A stretch of DNA of 21,960 nucleotides from an uncultured Verrucomicrobiota bacterium (lineage in GTDB: Bacteria > Verrucomicrobiota > CALLYA01 > CAYNBQ01): NCBI GenBank assembly GCA_964395275.1, contig CAYNBQ010000040.1, positions 1-21,960 on the forward strand. The letters are read 5' to 3'. The position numbers and the translations under genes are program-made. Below are positions 3,096 through 21,960 of this stretch, piece by piece (position 1 is the first letter of the stretch; every line of letters begins with the position of its first letter). Below the pieces are notes generated by a model. The model saw only the letters and a program-made list of their open reading frames with translations. It made no database searches and was not told the origin of the DNA.

Positions 3096-4004
3096 ATGAA
3101 CGAGATTCCCGGGGCGGACGCAGGTGACGAGATCGTGGTCGCCGGAGAACGGTTTCACACCGGCACGCCGGTGGTGCTCTGGTCGGATCCGGGCGGATAC
3201 AACGCCTACCTGGAACACCGGTTCTTCGAACCCGGCGAGATCCTGCCTTCCCAGGCGTCCGTCGATCGGCCGCGCCGCTACGACGAACGCGTTCCGGAGG
3301 ACGACGCCCTGGCCGAACGCGTGGCCGAAGAGGGTTGGACCCTGGAGAACCTGCAACGGGCCGTCCGGCTCTTCGTCATCCACTACGATGTCTGCGTCAC
3401 GTCCCGATACTGTTTCCGCGTGCTGCACGACGTGCGCGGGTTGTCCGTGCATTTCATGCTGGATCTCGACGGGACGATCTACCAGACCCTCGATCTCCGC
3501 GAACGCGGCCGGCATTCCGGGCCGGCCAACAATCCCTCGATCGGCGTCGAGATCGCCCATATCGGGGCCTATCCCGACACCGAAATCCTCGACCAGTGGT
3601 ACCGCCCCGACGAGACCGGCCGGTTGCGCGTGGTCCTTCCCGAGGAGAGAGGCGACGGAGGGATCCGGACCCCGGGATTCGTCGCCCGCCCGGCGCGCCC
3701 CGGTCTCTTCGAGGGAACGATCCACGGCCGGCGCCTCGTTCAGTACGATTTCACCGAGGAACAGTACCGCGCCCTCGGGCGGCTGACCGCAGCCGTGGCG
3801 AGGGCCCTGCCGCGGATCCGCCCGGAGGCGCCGCGCGACGCCGCCGGGAAGGTGCGCGCCGACCGGTTGAGCGACGGCGAACTGGCGCGGTTCGAGGGGC
3901 TGGTCGGCCACTGGCACCTGACGACGAACAAGATCGATCCGGGTCCGGCGTTCGACTGGGACCGGGTGTTGAACGACGCCCGCCGGTTCCTGGCGGAATC
4001 CTGA
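3096..4004 (+). CDS. N-acetylmuramoyl-L-alanine amidase, Amidase_2 (PGRP/AmpD-type) family, cytoplasmic paralog
   Basis: 302 aa. Amidase_2 core (VIHYDVC...[20 protein letters not shown]...[18 protein letters not shown]...). C-terminal [17 protein letters not shown] matches the Zn-ligand His / K.DPGP.F motif of AmpD and PGRPs. No signal peptide. About 100-aa N-terminal extension ([28 protein letters not shown]...) shared with the next gene. The GGAGG RBS sits 6 nt upstream of the ATG. Confidence 0.8.
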
Positions 4005-5029
4005 TGCGACTCGACCGGGCGGGGCGGAGCCGAACCTTCCTGCGATGGGCGGCCGCGTCGGCGATTCTCTGCGCCGCCCCGGCGTGCCGCCGCCGCAAAC
4101 CGCCGCCGGAAGAGCGGGTCGGCGACGAGATCGTCGTCGCCGGCCGGATGTTCCACACCGGCACGCCGGTCGTTCTCTGGTCGGATCCCGGCGGCTACGA
4201 CGCCTACCGGGAAACCTGTTTCTTCGTTCCGGACCGAGTCATGCCCTCTTCGAAGACCTACCGGGGCGGGCCGAAACGATACGGCGTGCGCAACCCGGGG
4301 GAAGGGGAGATCGCGCGGCGGGTGCGCGAGAAAGGCTGGACGCTCGAAAACCTCCGGGACTTCGTCCATCTCTTCGTGATCCACTACGACGCCTGCGGCA
4401 CGTCGAAACGCTGTTTCCGGGTCCTCCACGACGGCCGCGGCCTGTCCGTGCATTTCATGCTCGATCTCGACGGGACGATCTACCAGACCCTCGATCTCCG
4501 CGAACGGGCGCGGCACGCGGGTCTCTACAACAGCCGGTCGATCGGCATCGAGATCGCGAACATCGGCGCGTACGCGGACGGGGAACGGCTGGAGAAGTGG
4601 TATCGACGGGACGGGGACGGGCGGTTGCGCGTCGTCCTGCCCGCGGACGACGAGAGCGAAGGGATCCGCACCCCCGGCTTCGTCGCCCGTCCCGCGCGGC
4701 AGGAACTCGTCGAGGGCGAGATCCACGGAAAACGTTTCCGCCAGTACGACTACACGCCCGAGCAGTACGAAGCGCTGGCCCGCCTCACGGCGGCGCTGCA
4801 CCGGATCTTCCCCCTGATCCGGCTCGACGCGCCGCGGGACGAGGAAGGCCGGGTCCGGACCGACGTGCTCTCCCGCACGGAAATCCTCTCCTTCGGCGGG
4901 CTCGTGGGCCACCTGCACATCTCCTCCCGGAAAATCGACCCGGGACCGGCGTTCGACTGGGAAGGCGTCCTCCGGAACGCCCGCCGCATCTACCGCGAGA
5001 CGTCCGGCGCGCGACGGTCGAATCGCTGA
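4004..5029 (+). CDS. N-acetylmuramoyl-L-alanine amidase, Amidase_2 family, exported or lipoprotein paralog
   Basis: Its ATG shares one base with the TGA of the previous gene (cTGATGc). N-terminus [28 protein letters not shown] is signal-peptide or lipobox-like. The rest is collinear with, and about 60-65% identical to, the upstream paralog, including the [17 protein letters not shown] motif. Track ORF 3335..5029 is an out-of-frame upstream extension through the previous gene and is not real. Confidence 0.8.
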   Translation: MRLDRAGRSRTFLRWAAASAILCAAPACRRRKPPPEERVGDEIVVAGRMFHTGTPVVLWSDPGGYDAYRETCFFVPDRVMPSSKTYRGGPKRYGVRNPGEGEIARRVREKGWTLENLRDFVHLFVIHYDACGTSKRCFRVLHDGRGLSVHFMLDLDGTIYQTLDLRERARHAGLYNSRSIGIEIANIGAYADGERLEKWYRRDGDGRLRVVLPADDESEGIRTPGFVARPARQELVEGEIHGKRFRQYDYTPEQYEALARLTAALHRIFPLIRLDAPRDEEGRVRTDVLSRTEILSFGGLVGHLHISSRKIDPGPAFDWEGVLRNARRIYRETSGARRSNR

Positions 5030-5192: not shown

Positions 5193-6302
5193 ATGTGCGG
5201 CGACACCGGGAAGAGACATCCGTTCCGAAGGGAACGCCTGCGTCGTCCCACGCCGTTCCACAGGATGTTCGACCGGCCGCGGCGTCGGAACGCCCTGGTC
5301 GAGTTGAACAACGCCCTGGCGGAAGCCGTGAGGATCCGGGACGTTCCGGAAACGCTCGTCTATGAGTTGAACCGGAAATACCAGCTGGATCTCCAGAGGG
5401 TTTTCCGCAGGCGCCTCGAAAGGATGTACCGGGAGTTCATCCTGTTCTGCATGCAGGACGAACGTTTCGACGACGACGAGGTGGAAGACCTCTCGCATCT
5501 CCAGCTGCTCTTCGGCATCTCCAACCCCCGGCACAACGAGATCTACCTGGAGACGGCCGAGGAGAAGTACGGGAAGACCGTGGACGAGGTGCTTGCGGAC
5601 GGGCGGGTCACCGACGCCGAAAAGGCCCGGCTGGAACGGATGAGGAAGGATCTCGAGATCCCGGAATCGACGGCGGCCCGGCTCCTTCAGGACAAGGGGG
5701 GCAAGGTGCTGGCGAAACGGTGGCAGGAGGCCGTCGACGACGGACTCCTCTCCCCGGAGGAGGAACGGGAGCTGGACGCACTGGCGAAACGACTCGGCAT
5801 CGAGGTGCATCCGACGGAGAAGAGCCGGGAAGAGATCGAGCGGTGCCGGTGGAGATGGCGGATCGTCAACGGGACGCCTCCGCAGATCCCGGTGTCCATT
5901 CATCTTCCGCGGGGAGAGGTCTGCTATTTCAAGACGGACGTCGCCTGGTACGAGCTGCGCCGCGTGACCCGCAGGATCCGGTACGGCGGTCCGACGATGC
6001 GGATCAAGCTCATGAAGGGAGTGTACTGGAGAATGGGCGATCTCGGGGTCCGATCCGTTTCGGAAGACGTGATGACCCGGATCGACGAAGGGACCGTGTA
6101 CGTGACGAATCGGCGGCTTCTCTTCCGCGGTGAGAGGAAGAACACATCGATCCGGCTCTCGAAGATCCTGGATATCACGCCCCATCGCAACGGGGTCGAG
6201 ATCGAGAAGGACACCGGCCGTTCCCCCTTCCTCGAGTTCCACAGCGACGTCGACATCTTCTGCGCCGCCCTCACGCGCGCCATCGAGGATGCGATCCGAT
6301 GA
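5193..6302 (+). CDS. Hypothetical soluble protein: N-terminal acidic helical repeats (TerB-like?) plus C-terminal bacterial PH/GRAM-like domain
   Basis: 369-aa ORF with GGAGGA 10 nt upstream of the ATG at 5193. An alternative ATG exists at 5265 (MFDRP...). No TM segments. Repeated helical D/E-rich units (DDDEVEDLSHLQLLFGIS; DDGLLSPEEERELDALAKRLGIEV). The C-terminal approximately 150 aa is all-beta (TDVAWYELRRVTRRIRYG...GTVYVTNRRLLFRGERKNTSIRLSKILDITPHRNGVEIEK), as in bPH_2/YokE-type PH domains. Its stop TGA (6300-6302) overlaps the ATG of the channel gene. Confidence 0.6.
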   Translation: MCGDTGKRHPFRRERLRRPTPFHRMFDRPRRRNALVELNNALAEAVRIRDVPETLVYELNRKYQLDLQRVFRRRLERMYREFILFCMQDERFDDDEVEDLSHLQLLFGISNPRHNEIYLETAEEKYGKTVDEVLADGRVTDAEKARLERMRKDLEIPESTAARLLQDKGGKVLAKRWQEAVDDGLLSPEEERELDALAKRLGIEVHPTEKSREEIERCRWRWRIVNGTPPQIPVSIHLPRGEVCYFKTDVAWYELRRVTRRIRYGGPTMRIKLMKGVYWRMGDLGVRSVSEDVMTRIDEGTVYVTNRRLLFRGERKNTSIRLSKILDITPHRNGVEIEKDTGRSPFLEFHSDVDIFCAALTRAIEDAIR

Positions 6303-6315
6303 ACCGGAAACGGGC
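6264..6315. repeat. 52-bp direct repeat, copy 1 (spans the upstream gene's 3' end, the stop and the first 6 codons of the channel gene)
   Basis: gccgccctcacgcgcgccatcgaggatgcgatccgatgaaccggaaacgggc. Identical to 7113-7164 except one base (6295 T versus 7144 C). Copy spacing is 849 bp. Confidence 0.9.
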
Positions 6316-7105
6316 ATGGGAGATCGTCGAGGTTGCCCGTCAGGGGGACAGGGCGAGCCGCCTCTTCGATGTCGGCATTCTCACGCTGATCTTTCTCAAC
6401 GTGATCGCAGTTGTCATCGGATCCGTCCGATCGGTGCGGGAACGCTGGGGTCTTTATCTCGATGTTTTCGAAGTCTTTTCGGTTGCAGTCTTCACGCTGG
6501 AATATGCCACGCGAGTCTGGGCATGTACCGCTAACGACCGCTATCGCGAACCGATACGGGGACGCATCCGATTTGCGTTCACGCCAATGGCCATCATCGA
6601 CCTCCTGGCGTTCCTGCCCTTCTATCTGCCTTTCGTGGGATTCGACCTCCGGTCGATGCGGGTGCTGCGCCTGCTGCGCGTTTTCCGGATCGCGAAGATG
6701 AGCAGGTACTATTCTTCAATGCAATTGATCAGGAACGTTCTCCGTGCCAAGAGAGAAGGCCTTGTCCTCAGTTCCGTGATCATGTTGTCGCTGTTGGTGA
6801 TGGCGTCGAGTGTCTTGTACTACCTCGAGAATCCAGTGCAACCGGACACGTTTTCGAGCATCCCGGCAACGATGTGGTGGGCGGTGGCGACGCTCACGAC
6901 GGTGGGATACGGCGACATGTATCCCGTAACCGCCGCCGGGAAATTCTTCGCAGGTGTGATTGCTGTTCTCGGGATCGGCATGTTCGCCTTGCCGACCGGC
7001 ATCCTCGGAGCCGGCTTTGTCGAGGAGATTGGGAAGCGCAACAAGCCTGCCCGGGCTTGCCCCTTCTGCGGAAGGACGATCCCGCCGGATGACGACAGTA
7101 TCTGA
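6299..7105 (+). CDS. Voltage-gated K+ channel (6-TM Kv/KvAP-like, ion_trans family)
   Basis: 268 aa. Six predicted TM helices. S4 has Arg at every third position (LRSMRVLRLLRVFRIAKMSRYYS). The pore loop carries the canonical K+ selectivity filter (TMWWAVATLTTVGYGDMYP). S6 is glycine-rich (GVIAVLGIGMFALPTGILGAGF). Short C-tail with CPFCGR. Start ATG overlaps the stop of the upstream ORF (ATGA). Confidence 0.92.
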   Translation: MNRKRAWEIVEVARQGDRASRLFDVGILTLIFLNVIAVVIGSVRSVRERWGLYLDVFEVFSVAVFTLEYATRVWACTANDRYREPIRGRIRFAFTPMAIIDLLAFLPFYLPFVGFDLRSMRVLRLLRVFRIAKMSRYYSSMQLIRNVLRAKREGLVLSSVIMLSLLVMASSVLYYLENPVQPDTFSSIPATMWWAVATLTTVGYGDMYPVTAAGKFFAGVIAVLGIGMFALPTGILGAGFVEEIGKRNKPARACPFCGRTIPPDDDSI

Positions 7106-7112
7106 TCCGTAG

Positions 7113-7164
7113 GCCGCCCTCACGCGCGCCATCGAGGATGCGACCCGATGAACCGGAAACGGGC
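7113..7164. repeat. 52-bp direct repeat, copy 2 (intergenic, just after the channel stop at 7105)
   Basis: gccgccctcacgcgcgccatcgaggatgcgacccgatgaaccggaaacgggc. Encodes ...AALTRAIEDATR* followed by a decapitated MNRKRA... start. The sequence downstream diverges from the channel gene. Confidence 0.9.
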
Positions 7165-7199
7165 GTCTTCCTCACGGGAGGGCGACACTCCGCCGCGGT

Positions 7200-8315
7200 C
7201 TACCAGTCCCTCGAGTCCGGGACTTCCAGCCATTCCCCGCCGCGCTCGATCGATTCCCGGCTGACGAGGCCGGGCAGGGTCAGGTCCATCGCCTCGTGGA
7301 TCCCCACGGTCGGCGGTTCTCCGCGGACGACGGCGTCGACGAAGTCGCGGATCACGAAATAGTCGCCGCCCCCGTGGCCCGCCGAGCGGACCGCATCGGG
7401 CAGCTCGCGGAGAAGGTCGGGGAGGAACTCGTCCTCGATCTCTTCGAGGTCCGTCCACCGATGCGGATCCTCGCAACGGTCGGCAAGCCAGATCTTGTGA
7501 TGTTCGCCCGGGTGGCGCGCGGATTCGAAACAGCCTCTGGTTCCCTGCAGCGTGTAGTTGTTCGTCGCATGGGGCCGGTTCGAGAGCATGTCGACCCGGA
7601 TCCGGATCAGTCGCCCGCGCTCGGTTCCGGCCGGCATCAGGCAGGTGTCCTCGTTCTCGTAGGGTTTCCCCTCGGAATCGACGTAGTGATGCCCGGATCC
7701 GACGCAACAGAGGCGGGCGACCCGGTCCCCCTCCATCCACTGCAGGATCGGGCCGAGGCTGTGCGTGCCGTAGGTGATCCCGTTGACGCCCGTCTGCCAG
7801 ATCCGCCGCCACGGGGTGGCGACCTGAAGCCCTTTCAACTCGTGGATGTACTCGCCCTCGGCGTAATAGAGCTCGCCGAAGAAGCCCCGGCGGACCATCT
7901 CCCGGACGACGAGGTTCGAGCGCGTGTAGATGTAGTTCTCGGCCATCGCGTAGACGGCGCCGCTCTCCCGGCAGGCGGCGACCAGTTCGCGGCATTCCTC
8001 CAGGCTCACGGCCGCCGTGACTTCCGACAGGACGTGAATGCCCCGGCGGAGGGCGGCGATCGACATCGGGGCGTGGTGCTGCATGGGCGTGGCGATCAGG
8101 ACGGCGTCCAGTTCGGAACGGTCCAGCATCTCCTCGTAATCCGTCCAGGCCTCGGCCGCGCCGAGGGTTTTCCGCGCGGATTCGACCTTCTCCGGGTCGA
8201 TGTCGCAGACCGCGTGCAGCCGCAGTTCCGGGCAGGCGCGTATCGATTCACCGAAGGACCCGCCGCGGCCCGCGGCGCCCACGACGCCCAGGTTCAGCTT
8301 CTCGATTTCCTGCAT
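7200..8315 (-). CDS. Gfo/Idh/MocA-family NAD(P)-dependent oxidoreductase
   Basis: 371 aa. N-terminal Rossmann fold (LNLGVVGAAGRGGSFGES) with the family-typical layout (EKVESARKTLG...; AVLIATPMQHHAPMSIAALRRGIHVLSEV). ATG at 8313-8315 with a GGTGA-type RBS. Lies 4 nt downstream of the preceding gene's stop. Confidence 0.85.
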   Translation of the reverse strand: MQEIEKLNLGVVGAAGRGGSFGESIRACPELRLHAVCDIDPEKVESARKTLGAAEAWTDYEEMLDRSELDAVLIATPMQHHAPMSIAALRRGIHVLSEVTAAVSLEECRELVAACRESGAVYAMAENYIYTRSNLVVREMVRRGFFGELYYAEGEYIHELKGLQVATPWRRIWQTGVNGITYGTHSLGPILQWMEGDRVARLCCVGSGHHYVDSEGKPYENEDTCLMPAGTERGRLIRIRVDMLSNRPHATNNYTLQGTRGCFESARHPGEHHKIWLADRCEDPHRWTDLEEIEDEFLPDLLRELPDAVRSAGHGGGDYFVIRDFVDAVVRGEPPTVGIHEAMDLTLPGLVSRESIERGGEWLEVPDSRDW

Positions 8316-9406: not shown

Positions 9407-9772
9407 CTACGATGCGGAATCCTCCGGTCCCGGGGAGGCACGGTACTTGATCACGCGCACCCGTTCCAGGGTGACCAGGCCGTCGCCCATCATGGCGTCG
9501 ATCTCCGGCATCAGCCGGTCGATCTTCTCCTGGCTGTCGACGATCTCGATGATGATCGGCAGGTCCTCCGAGAGGCGTAGGATCCGCGCGGTGTGCAGGT
9601 GGCTCTTCGCACCGAACCCCATCGGCCCGCGCAGGACCGTGGCGCCGGCCATCTTCATCTCGCGCGCCTTCATGACGATCGCTTCGTAGAGGGGCTTGCC
9701 GTGCCACCGGTCGCTCTCGCCGATGAAGATCCGCAGCAGGTAGCCGTCGTCCGGAATCTTGATGCCCGTCAT
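9407..9772 (-). CDS. DUF190-family (PII/GlnB-like fold) protein, crcB-associated
   Basis: 121 aa (MTGIKIPDDGYLLRIFIGESDRWHGKPLYEAIV...). Size and sequence pattern match the DUF190 proteins that habitually sit beside crcB. ATG at 9770-9772. Confidence 0.75.
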   Translation of the reverse strand: MTGIKIPDDGYLLRIFIGESDRWHGKPLYEAIVMKAREMKMAGATVLRGPMGFGAKSHLHTARILRLSEDLPIIIEIVDSQEKIDRLMPEIDAMMGDGLVTLERVRVIKYRASPGPEDSAS

Positions 9773-9820
9773 CGTCCCTTTCCTTCTTCCCGTCGCCCGC
9801 GCCTCGCCCGGCTTTCCCCC

Positions 9821-10207
9821 TCACAGTCCGAAGAGACGGACCGCCAGACGCCATCCCGTCCATGCGGCGACCAGTCCGACGACATTGTTCAGCAGAAGAT
9901 TCAGCGCCGCCAGCCGGAACGATCCCGCGGAGGCGAGCGTCAGCGTTTCCCATGCGTACGACGAAAACGTGGTGAACCCGCCGAGAAGACCGACCAGGAG
10001 GGCGATCCGCAGGTCTTCCCGGATCAGGATCGGGCCGCTCAGGGAGGTGGCGAGGAAGCCGATGAAGAAACAGCCGACCACGTTCACCGTCCAGGTGCCG
10101 ACCGGGAAAACCTGGCCTCCGATCCGCTGGGCCCACCCGGAAACGCCGTACCGGAGGAGCGAACCGGTGGCGCCTCCCAGCGCCACGGCGATGATGCGCG
10201 TCCACAT
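9821..10207 (-). CDS. crcB: Fluoride ion channel CrcB/Fluc
   Basis: 128 aa with four TM segments and the CrcB signature motifs (GSLLRY near the N-terminus; GLLGGFTTFSS). ATG at 10205-10207. Confidence 0.9.
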   Translation of the reverse strand: MWTRIIAVALGGATGSLLRYGVSGWAQRIGGQVFPVGTWTVNVVGCFFIGFLATSLSGPILIREDLRIALLVGLLGGFTTFSSYAWETLTLASAGSFRLAALNLLLNNVVGLVAAWTGWRLAVRLFGL

Positions 10208-21362: not shown

Positions 21363-21482
21363 CGGCGGCTCCTCCCGGGGGGAACGTCGCCGATTCTACC
21401 GGGACCGTCGCGGGAATCGAGCGTTCCGCGTGACGCGCCGTCCCGCTCCGGCCCCGCGAAGGAAAACCTGCTGTAAGGGGCC

Positions 21483-21960
21483 GACCCCGTCTTGCCCTAC
21501 GTCTTGTCCGCCGTCTTGTCCTCCGTAGTGCCGCATTTGCGGCACGAAGGAGGAAGTTCCGGCATGTGGGACGAAGGCGGACGTTCCGTGGTCGCCCGAA
21601 CGGGGTCGGGCTCCTACTTTTGGTTGCGCGAGTAAAGAGAGAGTAGGAGGCCGATCCCGACGCGCCCTACGTCTTGTCCTCCGTAGTTCCGCGAGCGCGG
21701 AACGAAGGGGGAAGTCCTGCCGGGTGCGTGGAACAAGGGAGAAAATCGCCCGAGTATGGGACGAAGTAGGGTCGGCCGATTCGACCCACAAAGGAAAACC
21801 CGTGGAGCCGCGACGCCCTGTTCTCCTTCGTAGTCCCGCCGGCGGCCCGGGACTGCTGCGCCCCCGGAACGAACCCACTCCGTGGGTTCTCATCCCACCC
21901 TTTCGTGGGAAGGGCGGGTATGTTGGCGAACCAAGACGGAGCCGGGAATACCGAGTGGCT
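21483..21960. repeat. Cluster of REP/MITE-like imperfect palindromic repeats (intergenic, continues to the window edge)
   Basis: The shared unit gccctacgtcttgtcc(tccg) occurs at about 21494 and 21664. Each copy is followed by a long hairpin: tcctcc-gta-gtgccgc-attt-gcggcac-gaa-ggagga at 21519-21554, and tcctcc-gta-gttccgcg-ag-cgcggaac-gaa-ggggga at 21677-21712. The tgggacgaag motif is also repeated (21566, 21757). A third related palindrome (agtcccgccggcggcccgggact) lies near 21828-21850. A 9/10-bp-stem hairpin with a 25-nt AT-rich loop lies at 21609-21652. Confidence 0.6.

What the first reader, a model, noticed from the sequence alone, without database searches (positions are those of the whole stretch)
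6264..7164. Kv channel gene bracketed by a 52-bp near-perfect direct repeat; recombination between the copies would excise the gene and restore the upstream ORF
Sequence 6264-6315 and sequence 7113-7164 are identical apart from one base. The repeat carries the last 12 codons and stop of the upstream gene plus the first six codons (MNRKRA) of the channel. Copy 2 sits just after the channel stop. Read in the upstream gene's frame, copy 2 encodes ...AALTRAIEDATR-stop. A repeat-mediated deletion would therefore remove exactly the 849 bp channel cassette and leave the upstream gene intact, with one I-to-T change. A 52-bp duplication is far longer than ordinary transposase target-site duplications. 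It argues for recent insertion, duplication or cassette exchange of the channel gene, not an old vertically inherited arrangement. The near-identity implies the event is recent, or the repeat is maintained.
Basis: seen in the sequence. Interest (0 to 1): 0.8.

Follow-up and report, generated by a model that had tools for sequence, protein, structure and literature searches.

The report
Young 52-bp duplication flanking channel gene
A potassium-channel gene really is bracketed by a near-perfect 52-base direct repeat, but the gene pair it sits in is old and the repeat is most likely a recent local copying scar, not the footprint of a mobile gene cassette.

Summary
Positions 6264-6315 and 7113-7164 match at 51 of 52 bases, 849 bp apart, with sharp ends and no chance expectation. 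The main inference, a recent insertion of the channel, is not supported. The two closest relatives of the upstream gene (48-50% identity, a clade in 145/200 bootstraps) carry the same upstream-gene/channel pair with the same ATGA stop/start overlap, and the one relative with a readable downstream flank has no second junction copy. The repeat also contains the channel's own native start (MNRKRA; family consensus MN(I)RKR(T)WEIVE), so any 'empty site' would still hold a channel stub. No transposase, integrase, reverse transcriptase, tRNA, terminal inverted repeat, attC core or RNA structure is present. Best reading: a young, lineage-specific copy of the gene junction (templated insertion, or remnant of an 849-bp tandem duplication) in the 3' spacer of an old, translationally coupled operon. 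It makes the channel prone to loss or amplification. An older in-situ replacement of the channel is therefore plausible, but nothing links it to the repeat.

The parts
5193..6302 (+). Upstream gene 'U' (369 aa): helical Tic110/TerB-like N-terminal domain plus a C-terminal PH/GRAM-like beta-sandwich. Codon usage looks native.
   Evidence: Pfam PF16940 E = 2.9e-7. AlphaFold2 pLDDT 90.4. PH-like fold hits, best 5yqr at E = 9.5e-4. GC3 0.845 vs 0.843 expected, z = +0.1.
6264..6315 (+). Repeat copy 1: the functional junction. It holds the last 12 codons and TGA of U, the GAGGA Shine-Dalgarno, the ATGA stop/start overlap, and the first 17 nt of the channel ORF.
   Evidence: The same junction architecture is seen in L007 and L031.
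6299..7105 (+). Six-TM voltage-gated-type K+ channel (268 aa), with native N-terminus MNRKRAWEIVE and the C-terminal CPFCG motif intact.
   Evidence: PF00520 E = 1.5e-30 and PF07885 E = 1e-15. Family N- and C-termini compared. More than 7900 homologs, best 70% identity.
6316..7112 (+). The 797-bp unique segment between the repeat copies (channel codons 7-268, the stop, and a 7-nt tail TCCGTAG). It is a compositional outlier.
   Evidence: GC3 0.734 vs 0.886 expected from amino-acid composition, z = -8.3. Every 40-codon window is below expectation, with a minimum of z = -6.5 at codons 41-80.
7113..7164 (+). Repeat copy 2: an ectopic, non-coding duplicate of the junction in the convergent intergenic spacer, preceded by an in-frame TAG. 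It differs from copy 1 only at 7144 (C vs T).
   Evidence: No fold beats shuffled controls (z = -0.1 to -0.8). No terminator or promoter. No Rfam hit.
7148..7264 (+). 38-codon ORF (MNRKRASSSREGDTPPRSTSPSSPGLPAIPRRARSIPG*) opened by the duplicated Shine-Dalgarno and ATG. It is in frame with the channel and antisense to the 3' end of the oxidoreductase gene. Probably a by-product.
7165..7199 (.). 35-nt remainder of the spacer between copy 2 and the stop of the convergent gene. It has no similarity to the sequence that follows copy 1.
7200..8315 (-). Convergent Gfo/Idh/MocA oxidoreductase (371 aa), intact, with the family-typical C-terminus ...VPDSRDW* and native codon usage.
   Evidence: PF01408 E = 1.9e-21. 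C-termini compared. z = +2.2. Best homolog 65% identical.

Best explanation
Copy 2 is a young scar of a local replication or repair error, specific to this lineage and made from the genome's own sequence. Fifty-two bases of the resident upstream-gene/channel junction were copied into the short spacer 7 nt after the channel stop. This happened in one of two ways. It was either a single templated insertion (the nascent strand switched about 850 nt back, copied 52 nt, and switched forward again), or a tandem duplication of the 849-bp unit 6264-7112 followed by an illegitimate deletion of the rest of the second unit. The operon it sits in (a PH-domain/Tic110-like protein translationally coupled to a Kv-type channel through an ATGA overlap) is ancestral to a small clade and was not created by this event. 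Copy 2 has no demonstrable function. Its consequences are passive. First, the channel now lies between 52-bp direct repeats less than 1 kb apart, the kind of substrate on which RecA-independent template switching produces deletions and repeat expansions, so the channel is prone to loss or amplification while the upstream ORF is preserved. Second, a spare Shine-Dalgarno and ATG open a 38-codon ORF. SHOWN: the repeat, its content, its sharp ends, its youth, its absence from the one relative whose downstream flank is readable (L005/L007), the conservation of the gene pair, and the absence of any mobile-element machinery. INFERRED: the copying mechanism, neutrality, and instability.
For: (1) Two copies, 51/52 identical, zero expected by chance, sharp boundaries. 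(2) The pair with the same ATGA overlap is present in L005-L007 (P0003, 50% identity) and L031/L090 (P0002, 48%). The three linked upstream proteins form a clade in 145/200 bootstraps. About 25 more distant loci with an upstream-gene homolog lack the channel. (3) L005 and L007 have a complete channel and a downstream flank but no junction repeat. (4) The 17 nt of channel ORF inside the repeat encode the family-wide native N-terminus, also found in channels not linked to the upstream gene, so both copies derive from a pre-existing junction. (5) 51/52 identity is incompatible with copy 2 arriving from a divergent donor, so it is a copy of the resident sequence. (6) No transposase, integrase, recombinase, reverse transcriptase or tRNA in 22 kb. 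No terminal inverted repeats for any of the 53 permutations of the unit, and no attC core. (7) No RNA structure, terminator, promoter or Rfam family at copy 2. (8) Both flanking genes and the channel's C-terminus are intact, and copy 2 sits in the only non-coding gap nearby, where a 52-bp insertion is tolerated. [quoted passage not shown]
Against: There is at most 1 nt of microhomology at either novel junction, whereas slippage-type events usually use a few bases. The unit brackets one complete gene very tightly (35 nt before its ATG, 7 nt after its stop), which looks cassette-like and is a mild coincidence under a random tandem-duplication model. The segment between the copies is the one strong codon-usage outlier in the window (z = -8.3), and this explanation has to treat that as an unrelated, older event. 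No reads, sister genomes or independent assemblies exist to confirm the structure or show an ancestral state without copy 2.
Confidence: 0.6

Rival explanations
1. In-situ gene displacement with the junction as handle or scar. The slot downstream of the upstream gene is ancestral, but its occupant was replaced by a xenologous channel, and the duplicated junction is a by-product of that exchange or the homology that mediates it. One route would be Campbell-type integration of a circular R-channel molecule into the resident junction, followed by loss of the old copy.
For: The channel has GC3 0.734 vs 0.886 expected (z = -8.3), while the upstream gene (z = +0.1) and the oxidoreductase (z = +2.2) look native right up to the repeat copies. 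The anomaly is not a general family property: L032 z = +1.0, L035 z = -3.0, and in L005 the pair shifts together. The linked channels are not each other's nearest relatives: the window channel is 64.9% identical to L005's (rank 103 of 121) and they join in only 3/100 bootstraps, and the window channel shares an acidic C-terminal tail with unlinked Phycisphaerae-type channels. The unit brackets exactly one gene. Distant members of the wider family occur on plasmids and phages. The general concept is established (Omelchenko et al. 2003, Genome Biol 4:R55, as listed).
Against: A donor divergent enough to explain the codon usage could not carry a junction 51/52 identical to the resident one, so the copy is intragenomic and the two events need not be linked. 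Any one-step model requires the old channel to have been removed from exactly codon 7, a coincidence. The channel tree is star-like and the window channel sits on a long branch (0.218 vs median 0.115), with no sister above 24%, so the discordance is unsupported. The best channel homolog is only 70% identical, so no donor can be identified. Unlinked channels show no flanking repeats.
Confidence: 0.18
2. Assembly or population artefact. The contig is a walk through a graph that mixes haplotypes (for example a deletion allele together with a tandemly amplified allele), or it contains a chimeric junction, and no single genome has the structure U-R-channel-R-spacer.
For: The sequence comes from one metagenome-derived contig of 30.8 kb. 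All three proteins are singleton clusters seen on one contig only. No independent assembly exists.
Against: Both novel junctions (tail-to-copy-2 and copy-2-to-spacer) must exist in reads for any de Bruijn assembler to emit them. The copies share exact runs of only 31 and 20 nt, so an assembler with final k of 33 or more resolves them as separate paths. The single mismatch is tied to specific flanks. The haplotypes needed for a chimeric walk are themselves the recombination products of the observed structure.
Confidence: 0.07
3. Copy 2 is a maintained functional element. Examples: read-through of the convergent oxidoreductase mRNA would carry an antisense of copy 2 that is 51/52 complementary to the channel's ribosome-binding region (copy 1) and could repress channel translation; or the repeat pair serves as a programmed loss or amplification switch for the channel.
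For: No terminator separates the convergent genes, so antisense read-through across copy 2 is possible. Copy 2 covers exactly the Shine-Dalgarno and ATG region. Near-identity could reflect maintenance as well as youth.
Against: Copy 2 is absent from the one relative with the same operon whose downstream flank could be read (L005/L007); L031 is cut 183 nt into the channel. There is no structure signal and no recombinase. One lineage with one copy gives no evidence of selection, and youth alone explains the identity.
Confidence: 0.05

Closest known systems
Short, closely spaced direct repeats as products and substrates of RecA-independent template switching or slipped misalignment (Lovett; Bi & Liu; Chedin et al.; summarised in PMC7145654)
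   Same: Repeat under 200 bp, spacing under a few kb, same orientation. The predicted outcomes are precise deletion of one copy plus the intervening DNA, and repeat expansion. No dedicated enzyme is encoded nearby.
   Different: Those systems were engineered (for example 101-bp tetA repeats on plasmids) and the rates were measured. Here the repeat is natural, no rate is known, and the organism's repair repertoire is unknown. The junctions show essentially no microhomology.
Remnant of a tandem duplication (close direct repeats created in tandem and then eroded by deletion; Achaz, Rocha et al. 2002, NAR, recalled from memory and not held in the library)
   Same: Direct orientation, short distance, near-identity, and the unit junction lying in tolerated sequence.
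   Different: Only 52 of 849 bp of the supposed second unit remain, and nothing beyond it is homologous. So the two-step history is inferred and not visible.
Xenologous gene displacement in situ within a conserved operon (Omelchenko et al. 2003, Genome Biol 4:R55; reference as listed)
   Same: Operon architecture is conserved across relatives, while one member has atypical composition and a phylogeny that does not track its neighbour.
   Different: The phylogenetic discordance is not statistically supported here, no donor is known, and flanking duplicated junctions are not a described hallmark of such displacements.
Transposon or IS insertion with target-site duplication
   Same: A segment flanked by direct repeats of host sequence.
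   Different: 52 bp against the usual 2-14 bp. No transposase and no terminal inverted repeats. The 'target' contains the start of the 'inserted' gene itself.
Integron gene cassette
   Same: A single promoter-less ORF tightly bracketed by repeated sequence of about 50-60 nt that could in principle excise as a circle.
   Different: No IntI integrase, no attC hairpin or GTTRRRY core. The repeat is coding sequence of the neighbouring gene, and there is no array.

Membership tests
Transposon/IS with target-site duplication | Short target duplication of element-specific length (typically 2-14 bp) | tested here: not met
   The repeat is 52 bp.
Transposon/IS with target-site duplication | Terminal inverted repeats just inside the duplication | tested here: not met
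   For all 53 permutations of the 849-bp unit, the best inverted match of the termini is 13/30 with a terminal run of 1 nt.
Transposon/IS with target-site duplication | Transposase encoded in or near the element | tested here: not met
   The 797-bp segment holds only the channel ORF. Pfam scans of the plausible genes across the 22-kb window find no transposase.
Transposon/IS with target-site duplication | The duplicated target is host sequence unrelated to the cargo | tested here: not met
   The repeat contains the channel's own native N-terminal codons (MNRKRA; family consensus MN(I)RKR(T)W).
Integron gene cassette | attC site: imperfect palindrome that folds into a hairpin, with GTTRRRY / RYYYAAC core sites | tested here: not met
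   No core motif in either copy or within 20 nt of copy 2. Folds are no better than shuffles, z = -0.1 to -0.8.
Integron gene cassette | IntI tyrosine recombinase and attI adjacent to an array of cassettes | tested here: not met
   No integrase domain in the window. There is a single unit, not an array. The source genome beyond the window was not searchable.
Developmentally or phase-regulated excision element (skin, nifD-type) | Site-specific recombinase encoded within or beside the excised segment | tested here: not met
   None found in the window.
Diversity-generating retroelement (TR/VR pair) | Reverse transcriptase nearby, and TR/VR differences confined to adenines of the TR | tested here: not met
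   No reverse transcriptase. The single difference is T vs C (A vs G on the other strand), and one site cannot show a pattern.
Direct-repeat substrate of RecA-independent deletion/expansion | Direct repeats under 200 bp, within a few kb of each other | tested here: met
   52 bp repeats, 797 bp apart. Criterion as stated in PMC7145654.
Direct-repeat substrate of RecA-independent deletion/expansion | Observed deletion or expansion alleles in the population | not testable with these tools
   No reads and no sister assemblies.
Xenologous gene displacement in situ | Operon architecture conserved among relatives | tested here: met
   The same pair with the ATGA overlap is present in L005-L007 and L031. 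The upstream proteins form a clade in 145/200 bootstraps.
Xenologous gene displacement in situ | The displaced gene is compositionally atypical relative to its operon partner and neighbours | tested here: met
   z = -8.3 for the channel, +0.1 for the upstream gene, and |z| <= 3.5 for the 13 other genes. Controls.
Xenologous gene displacement in situ | The phylogeny of the displaced gene is significantly discordant with that of its partner | tested here: inconclusive
   The linked channels do not cluster (3/100 bootstraps), but the tree is star-like, the window channel is on a long branch, and no alternative sister exceeds 24%.
Tandem-duplication remnant | Residual homology of a second unit beyond the repeat | tested here: not met
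   Identity falls to random immediately after position 52. This does not exclude a clean deletion.

The most novel reading that the evidence does not exclude
The duplicated junction is not an accident but the working part of a recombinase-free swap system. The conserved stop/start junction of the PH-domain gene serves as a portable homology handle that lets channel alleles circularise, leave, and re-enter (or amplify within) a fixed operon slot. This would explain why the channel alone is compositionally foreign in an otherwise native neighbourhood.
Probability: 0.08. Interest if true: 0.65.

Novelty: new member of a known kind. Interest (0 to 1): 0.27.

Why it matters
As it stands, this is an ordinary if tidy example of how short ectopic duplications arise in bacterial genomes and make a gene prone to loss or amplification. 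It is also a useful caution: a gene flanked by direct repeats was not necessarily inserted. Two side results are of modest interest. First, there is a previously undescribed, translationally coupled operon of a Tic110/TerB-like plus PH-like protein with a Kv-type channel, conserved in a small clade, which hints at a cytoplasmic partner or regulator for a very widespread bacterial channel family. Second, the channel gene in that slot is a strong codon-usage outlier, a candidate case of in-situ gene displacement. If population data showed deletion, circular or amplified forms, the locus would become a natural model for repeat-mediated gene-dosage switching without a recombinase.

Tried and rejected
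(1) Exact-protein look-ups for independent assemblies of the same locus found nothing on record. All three local proteins are singleton clusters. (2) A scan of the metagenome collection for the 52-mer with synonymous positions relaxed gave 0 hits, so the empty-site test is not possible with public data. (3) The genome-collection scan with an alignment of the upstream protein returned 21 loci, none with a channel and none the source genome. A genome-wide search for further copies of the 52-mer was therefore not possible. (4) A degenerate junction pattern, validated on the known junctions, gave 63 metagenome hits, but only one true pair, the already known L031 contig. (5) The oxidoreductase homolog search, meant to find a close relative of the organism, gave a best hit of 65%. 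(6) RNA-structure, terminator, promoter and Rfam explanations for copy 2 were all negative. (7) Transposon, integron, excision-element and DGR readings all failed their defining features. (8) Campbell-type re-integration of a foreign circle was rejected as a one-step explanation, because 51/52 identity requires a conspecific donor that would already have the repeat structure. (9) Flanking repeats around unlinked channel genes: none. (10) Plasmid and phage carriage of the channel: only distant homologs, at most 49% identity. (11) Two background papers could not be opened.
Full report
OBSERVATION. The repeat is real and is placed exactly as described. Positions 6264-6315 and 7113-7164 are identical apart from one base (6295 T vs 7144 C), with start-to-start spacing of 849 bp. 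A scan allowing three mismatches finds only these two copies, and 100 dinucleotide-preserving shuffles give none. Identity drops to random level immediately outside the 52 bases on both sides. Copy 1 spans the last 12 codons and the TGA of a 369-aa gene (5193-6302, 'U'), a GAGGA Shine-Dalgarno, and the first 17 nt of a 268-aa Ion_trans/Kv-type channel (6299-7105; PF00520 E = 1.5e-30) whose ATG overlaps U's stop as ATGA. Copy 2 lies in the 94-nt gap between the channel stop and the stop of a convergent Gfo/Idh/MocA oxidoreductase (7200-8315, minus strand). It begins 7 nt after the channel stop, right after an in-frame TAG. Collapsing the repeat would remove 849 bp (3 x 283) and leave U intact.

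IS THE CHANNEL A RECENT INSERTION? No. U has only 44 detectable homologs among 5.8 billion clustered proteins. The two closest are P0003 (50% identity; contigs L005-L007) and P0002 (48%; L031, the same contig as L090). Both are followed by a channel of the same family, with the same 4-bp stop/start overlap. These three U proteins form a clade in 145 of 200 bootstraps. About 25 more distant U loci (33-45% identity) have unrelated genes downstream. The linkage is therefore ancestral to a small clade whose U proteins have diverged to 48-50% identity from the window's. L005 and L007 contain the complete channel and its downstream flank and show no junction repeat. The second copy is thus seen only in the window's lineage.

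WHAT THE REPEAT CONTENT SAYS. The six channel codons inside the repeat (M N R K R A) are the start of the family-wide native N-terminus MN(I)RKR(T)WEIVE. That N-terminus is present in well over a hundred homologs, including channels with no U gene upstream. Whichever of the 53 permutations of the 849-bp unit is called 'the insert', the hypothetical empty site U-R-spacer would still contain a 17-nt stub of the channel. The repeat therefore derives from an existing U/channel junction. It cannot be a target-site duplication at a site that had never held a channel. Because the copies are 51/52 identical, copy 2 must have been copied from the resident junction, or from a conspecific one, and not imported from a divergent donor.

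NO MOBILE-ELEMENT OR STRUCTURAL SIGNATURES. Pfam scans of the plausible genes across the 22-kb window find only housekeeping functions: SPFH, rubrerythrin, two Amidase_2 paralogs, oxidoreductase, inositol monophosphatase, DUF190, CrcB, aconitase, and several proteins with no family match. There is no transposase, integrase, recombinase or reverse transcriptase, and no tRNA. The ends of the unit carry no inverted repeats, and neither copy has an attC core. Copy 2 and its surroundings do not fold better than shuffled controls on either strand (z = -0.1 to -0.8). No terminator or promoter consensus lies there, and Rfam finds nothing in the window. The channel's C-terminus (CPFCG plus an acidic tail) and the oxidoreductase's C-terminus (...VPDSRDW*) are both family-typical, so the event damaged nothing.

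BEST EXPLANATION. Copy 2 is a young scar of a local replication or repair error: 1 difference in 52, 95% CI 0.05-10%. It arose either as a 52-nt templated insertion through a double template switch, or as the remnant of a tandem duplication of 6264-7112 whose second unit was then mostly deleted. It survives because it landed in the only non-coding gap in a tightly packed neighbourhood. Its effects are passive. The channel is now flanked by direct repeats under 200 bp and less than 1 kb apart. [quoted passage not shown] The duplicated Shine-Dalgarno and ATG also open a 38-codon ORF (7148-7264) antisense to the oxidoreductase's 3' end. I put about 0.6 on this reading. The copying mechanism, neutrality and instability are inferences. 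The weak points are the near absence of microhomology at the two novel junctions and the very tight bracketing of one gene.

THE CODON-USAGE ANOMALY. I used the window's other 14 genes as background and conditioned on amino-acid composition. On that basis the channel should have GC3 of 0.886 but has 0.734 (z = -8.3). U is at z = +0.1, the oxidoreductase at +2.2, and all other genes lie within |z| <= 3.5. Every 40-codon window of the channel is below expectation, with a minimum of z = -6.5 at codons 41-80, while U and the oxidoreductase are normal right up to the repeat copies. This is not a general property of the family. A Phycisphaerae channel matches its neighbours (L032, z = +1.0) and another is mildly low (L035, z = -3.0). 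In L005, U and the channel are low together (both about -4), as if that pair moved as a unit. The channel phylogeny neither supports nor refutes co-inheritance with U. The window channel is 64.9% identical to the L005 channel (rank 103 of 121) against 69% for the best unlinked channels. It sits on a long branch (0.218 vs a median of 0.115) and has no sister above 24%. It joins the L005 channel in 3 of 100 bootstraps. Replacement of the channel within a conserved operon slot ('gene displacement in situ', Omelchenko et al. 2003, reference as listed) is therefore plausible. But the identity argument above means the 52-bp duplication itself is intragenomic, and nothing ties the two events together in time. 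I give about 0.18 to a causal link.

OTHER RIVALS. An assembly artefact is unlikely (about 0.07). Both novel junctions must exist in reads, and the copies share exact runs of only 31 and 20 nt, so an assembler with final k of 33 or more keeps them apart. The point remains untested, because the locus exists in a single contig. A maintained regulatory role (about 0.05) has no support beyond the lack of a terminator. One example would be antisense pairing of oxidoreductase read-through RNA with the channel's ribosome-binding region. Copy 2 is also absent from L005/L007, the only relative whose downstream flank could be read.

LIMITS. The lineage is isolated. The best homologs are 50% (U), 70% (channel) and 65% (oxidoreductase) identical. 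So neither an empty site, nor a state without copy 2, nor a donor can be found in public data. The source genome outside the window could not be searched for further copies of the 52-mer.

VERDICT. The repeat is a real, recent, lineage-specific duplication of a gene junction inside an old operon. It is an ordinary kind of event, with one loose end worth noting: the compositionally foreign channel.

Noticed in passing
window 5193-7105; L005 5001-6892; L007 553-2444; L031 252-1537: A translationally coupled operon (ATGA overlap) of a 360-370-aa protein and a Kv-type six-TM channel is conserved in a small clade. The protein has a helical Tic110/TerB-like N-domain and a PH/GRAM-like C-domain (AF2 pLDDT 90). 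It may be a cytoplasmic partner or regulator of the channel. Most homologs of the protein are not linked to a channel.
   Followed up: partly
window 6299-7105: The channel gene is the one strong codon-usage outlier in the window (GC3 0.734 vs 0.886 expected, z = -8.3), while both neighbours look native. It is a candidate in-situ xenologous replacement. In L005 the whole pair is jointly low in GC3 relative to its neighbours (both z about -4).
   Followed up: yes
window 7060-7105 and channel homologs P0046-P0164: The channel family ends in a near-universal CP(H/F)CG motif, with exactly 5 further residues in 95 of 119 homologs. That is a single CxxC per subunit at the C-terminus of a presumably tetrameric channel, which suggests an inter-subunit metal site. 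The window's version has an 11-residue acidic tail like some Phycisphaerae members.
   Followed up: no
window 21470-21960: A non-coding stretch holds two to three diverged copies (77-83% identity) of a 60-100-nt element built around the hairpin CCTCCGTAGTGCCGC-ATTT-GCGGCACGAAGGAGG (21520-21553, with a second copy around 21679-21710). There is no Rfam match. It may be a REP-like dispersed repeat.
   Followed up: no
window 3096-5029: Two tandem paralogous Amidase_2 (N-acetylmuramoyl-L-alanine amidase) genes, 71-78% identical at the DNA level over several blocks. This is an older tandem duplication in the same neighbourhood.
   Followed up: no
window 9407-10207 (minus strand): A DUF190 plus CrcB (fluoride channel) pair has no fluoride riboswitch detectable at Rfam gathering thresholds anywhere in the window.
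   Followed up: no
window 7148-7264: The duplicated Shine-Dalgarno and ATG of copy 2 open a 38-codon ORF in frame with the channel and antisense to the oxidoreductase's 3' end. It is a possible accidental de novo ORF.
   Followed up: partly
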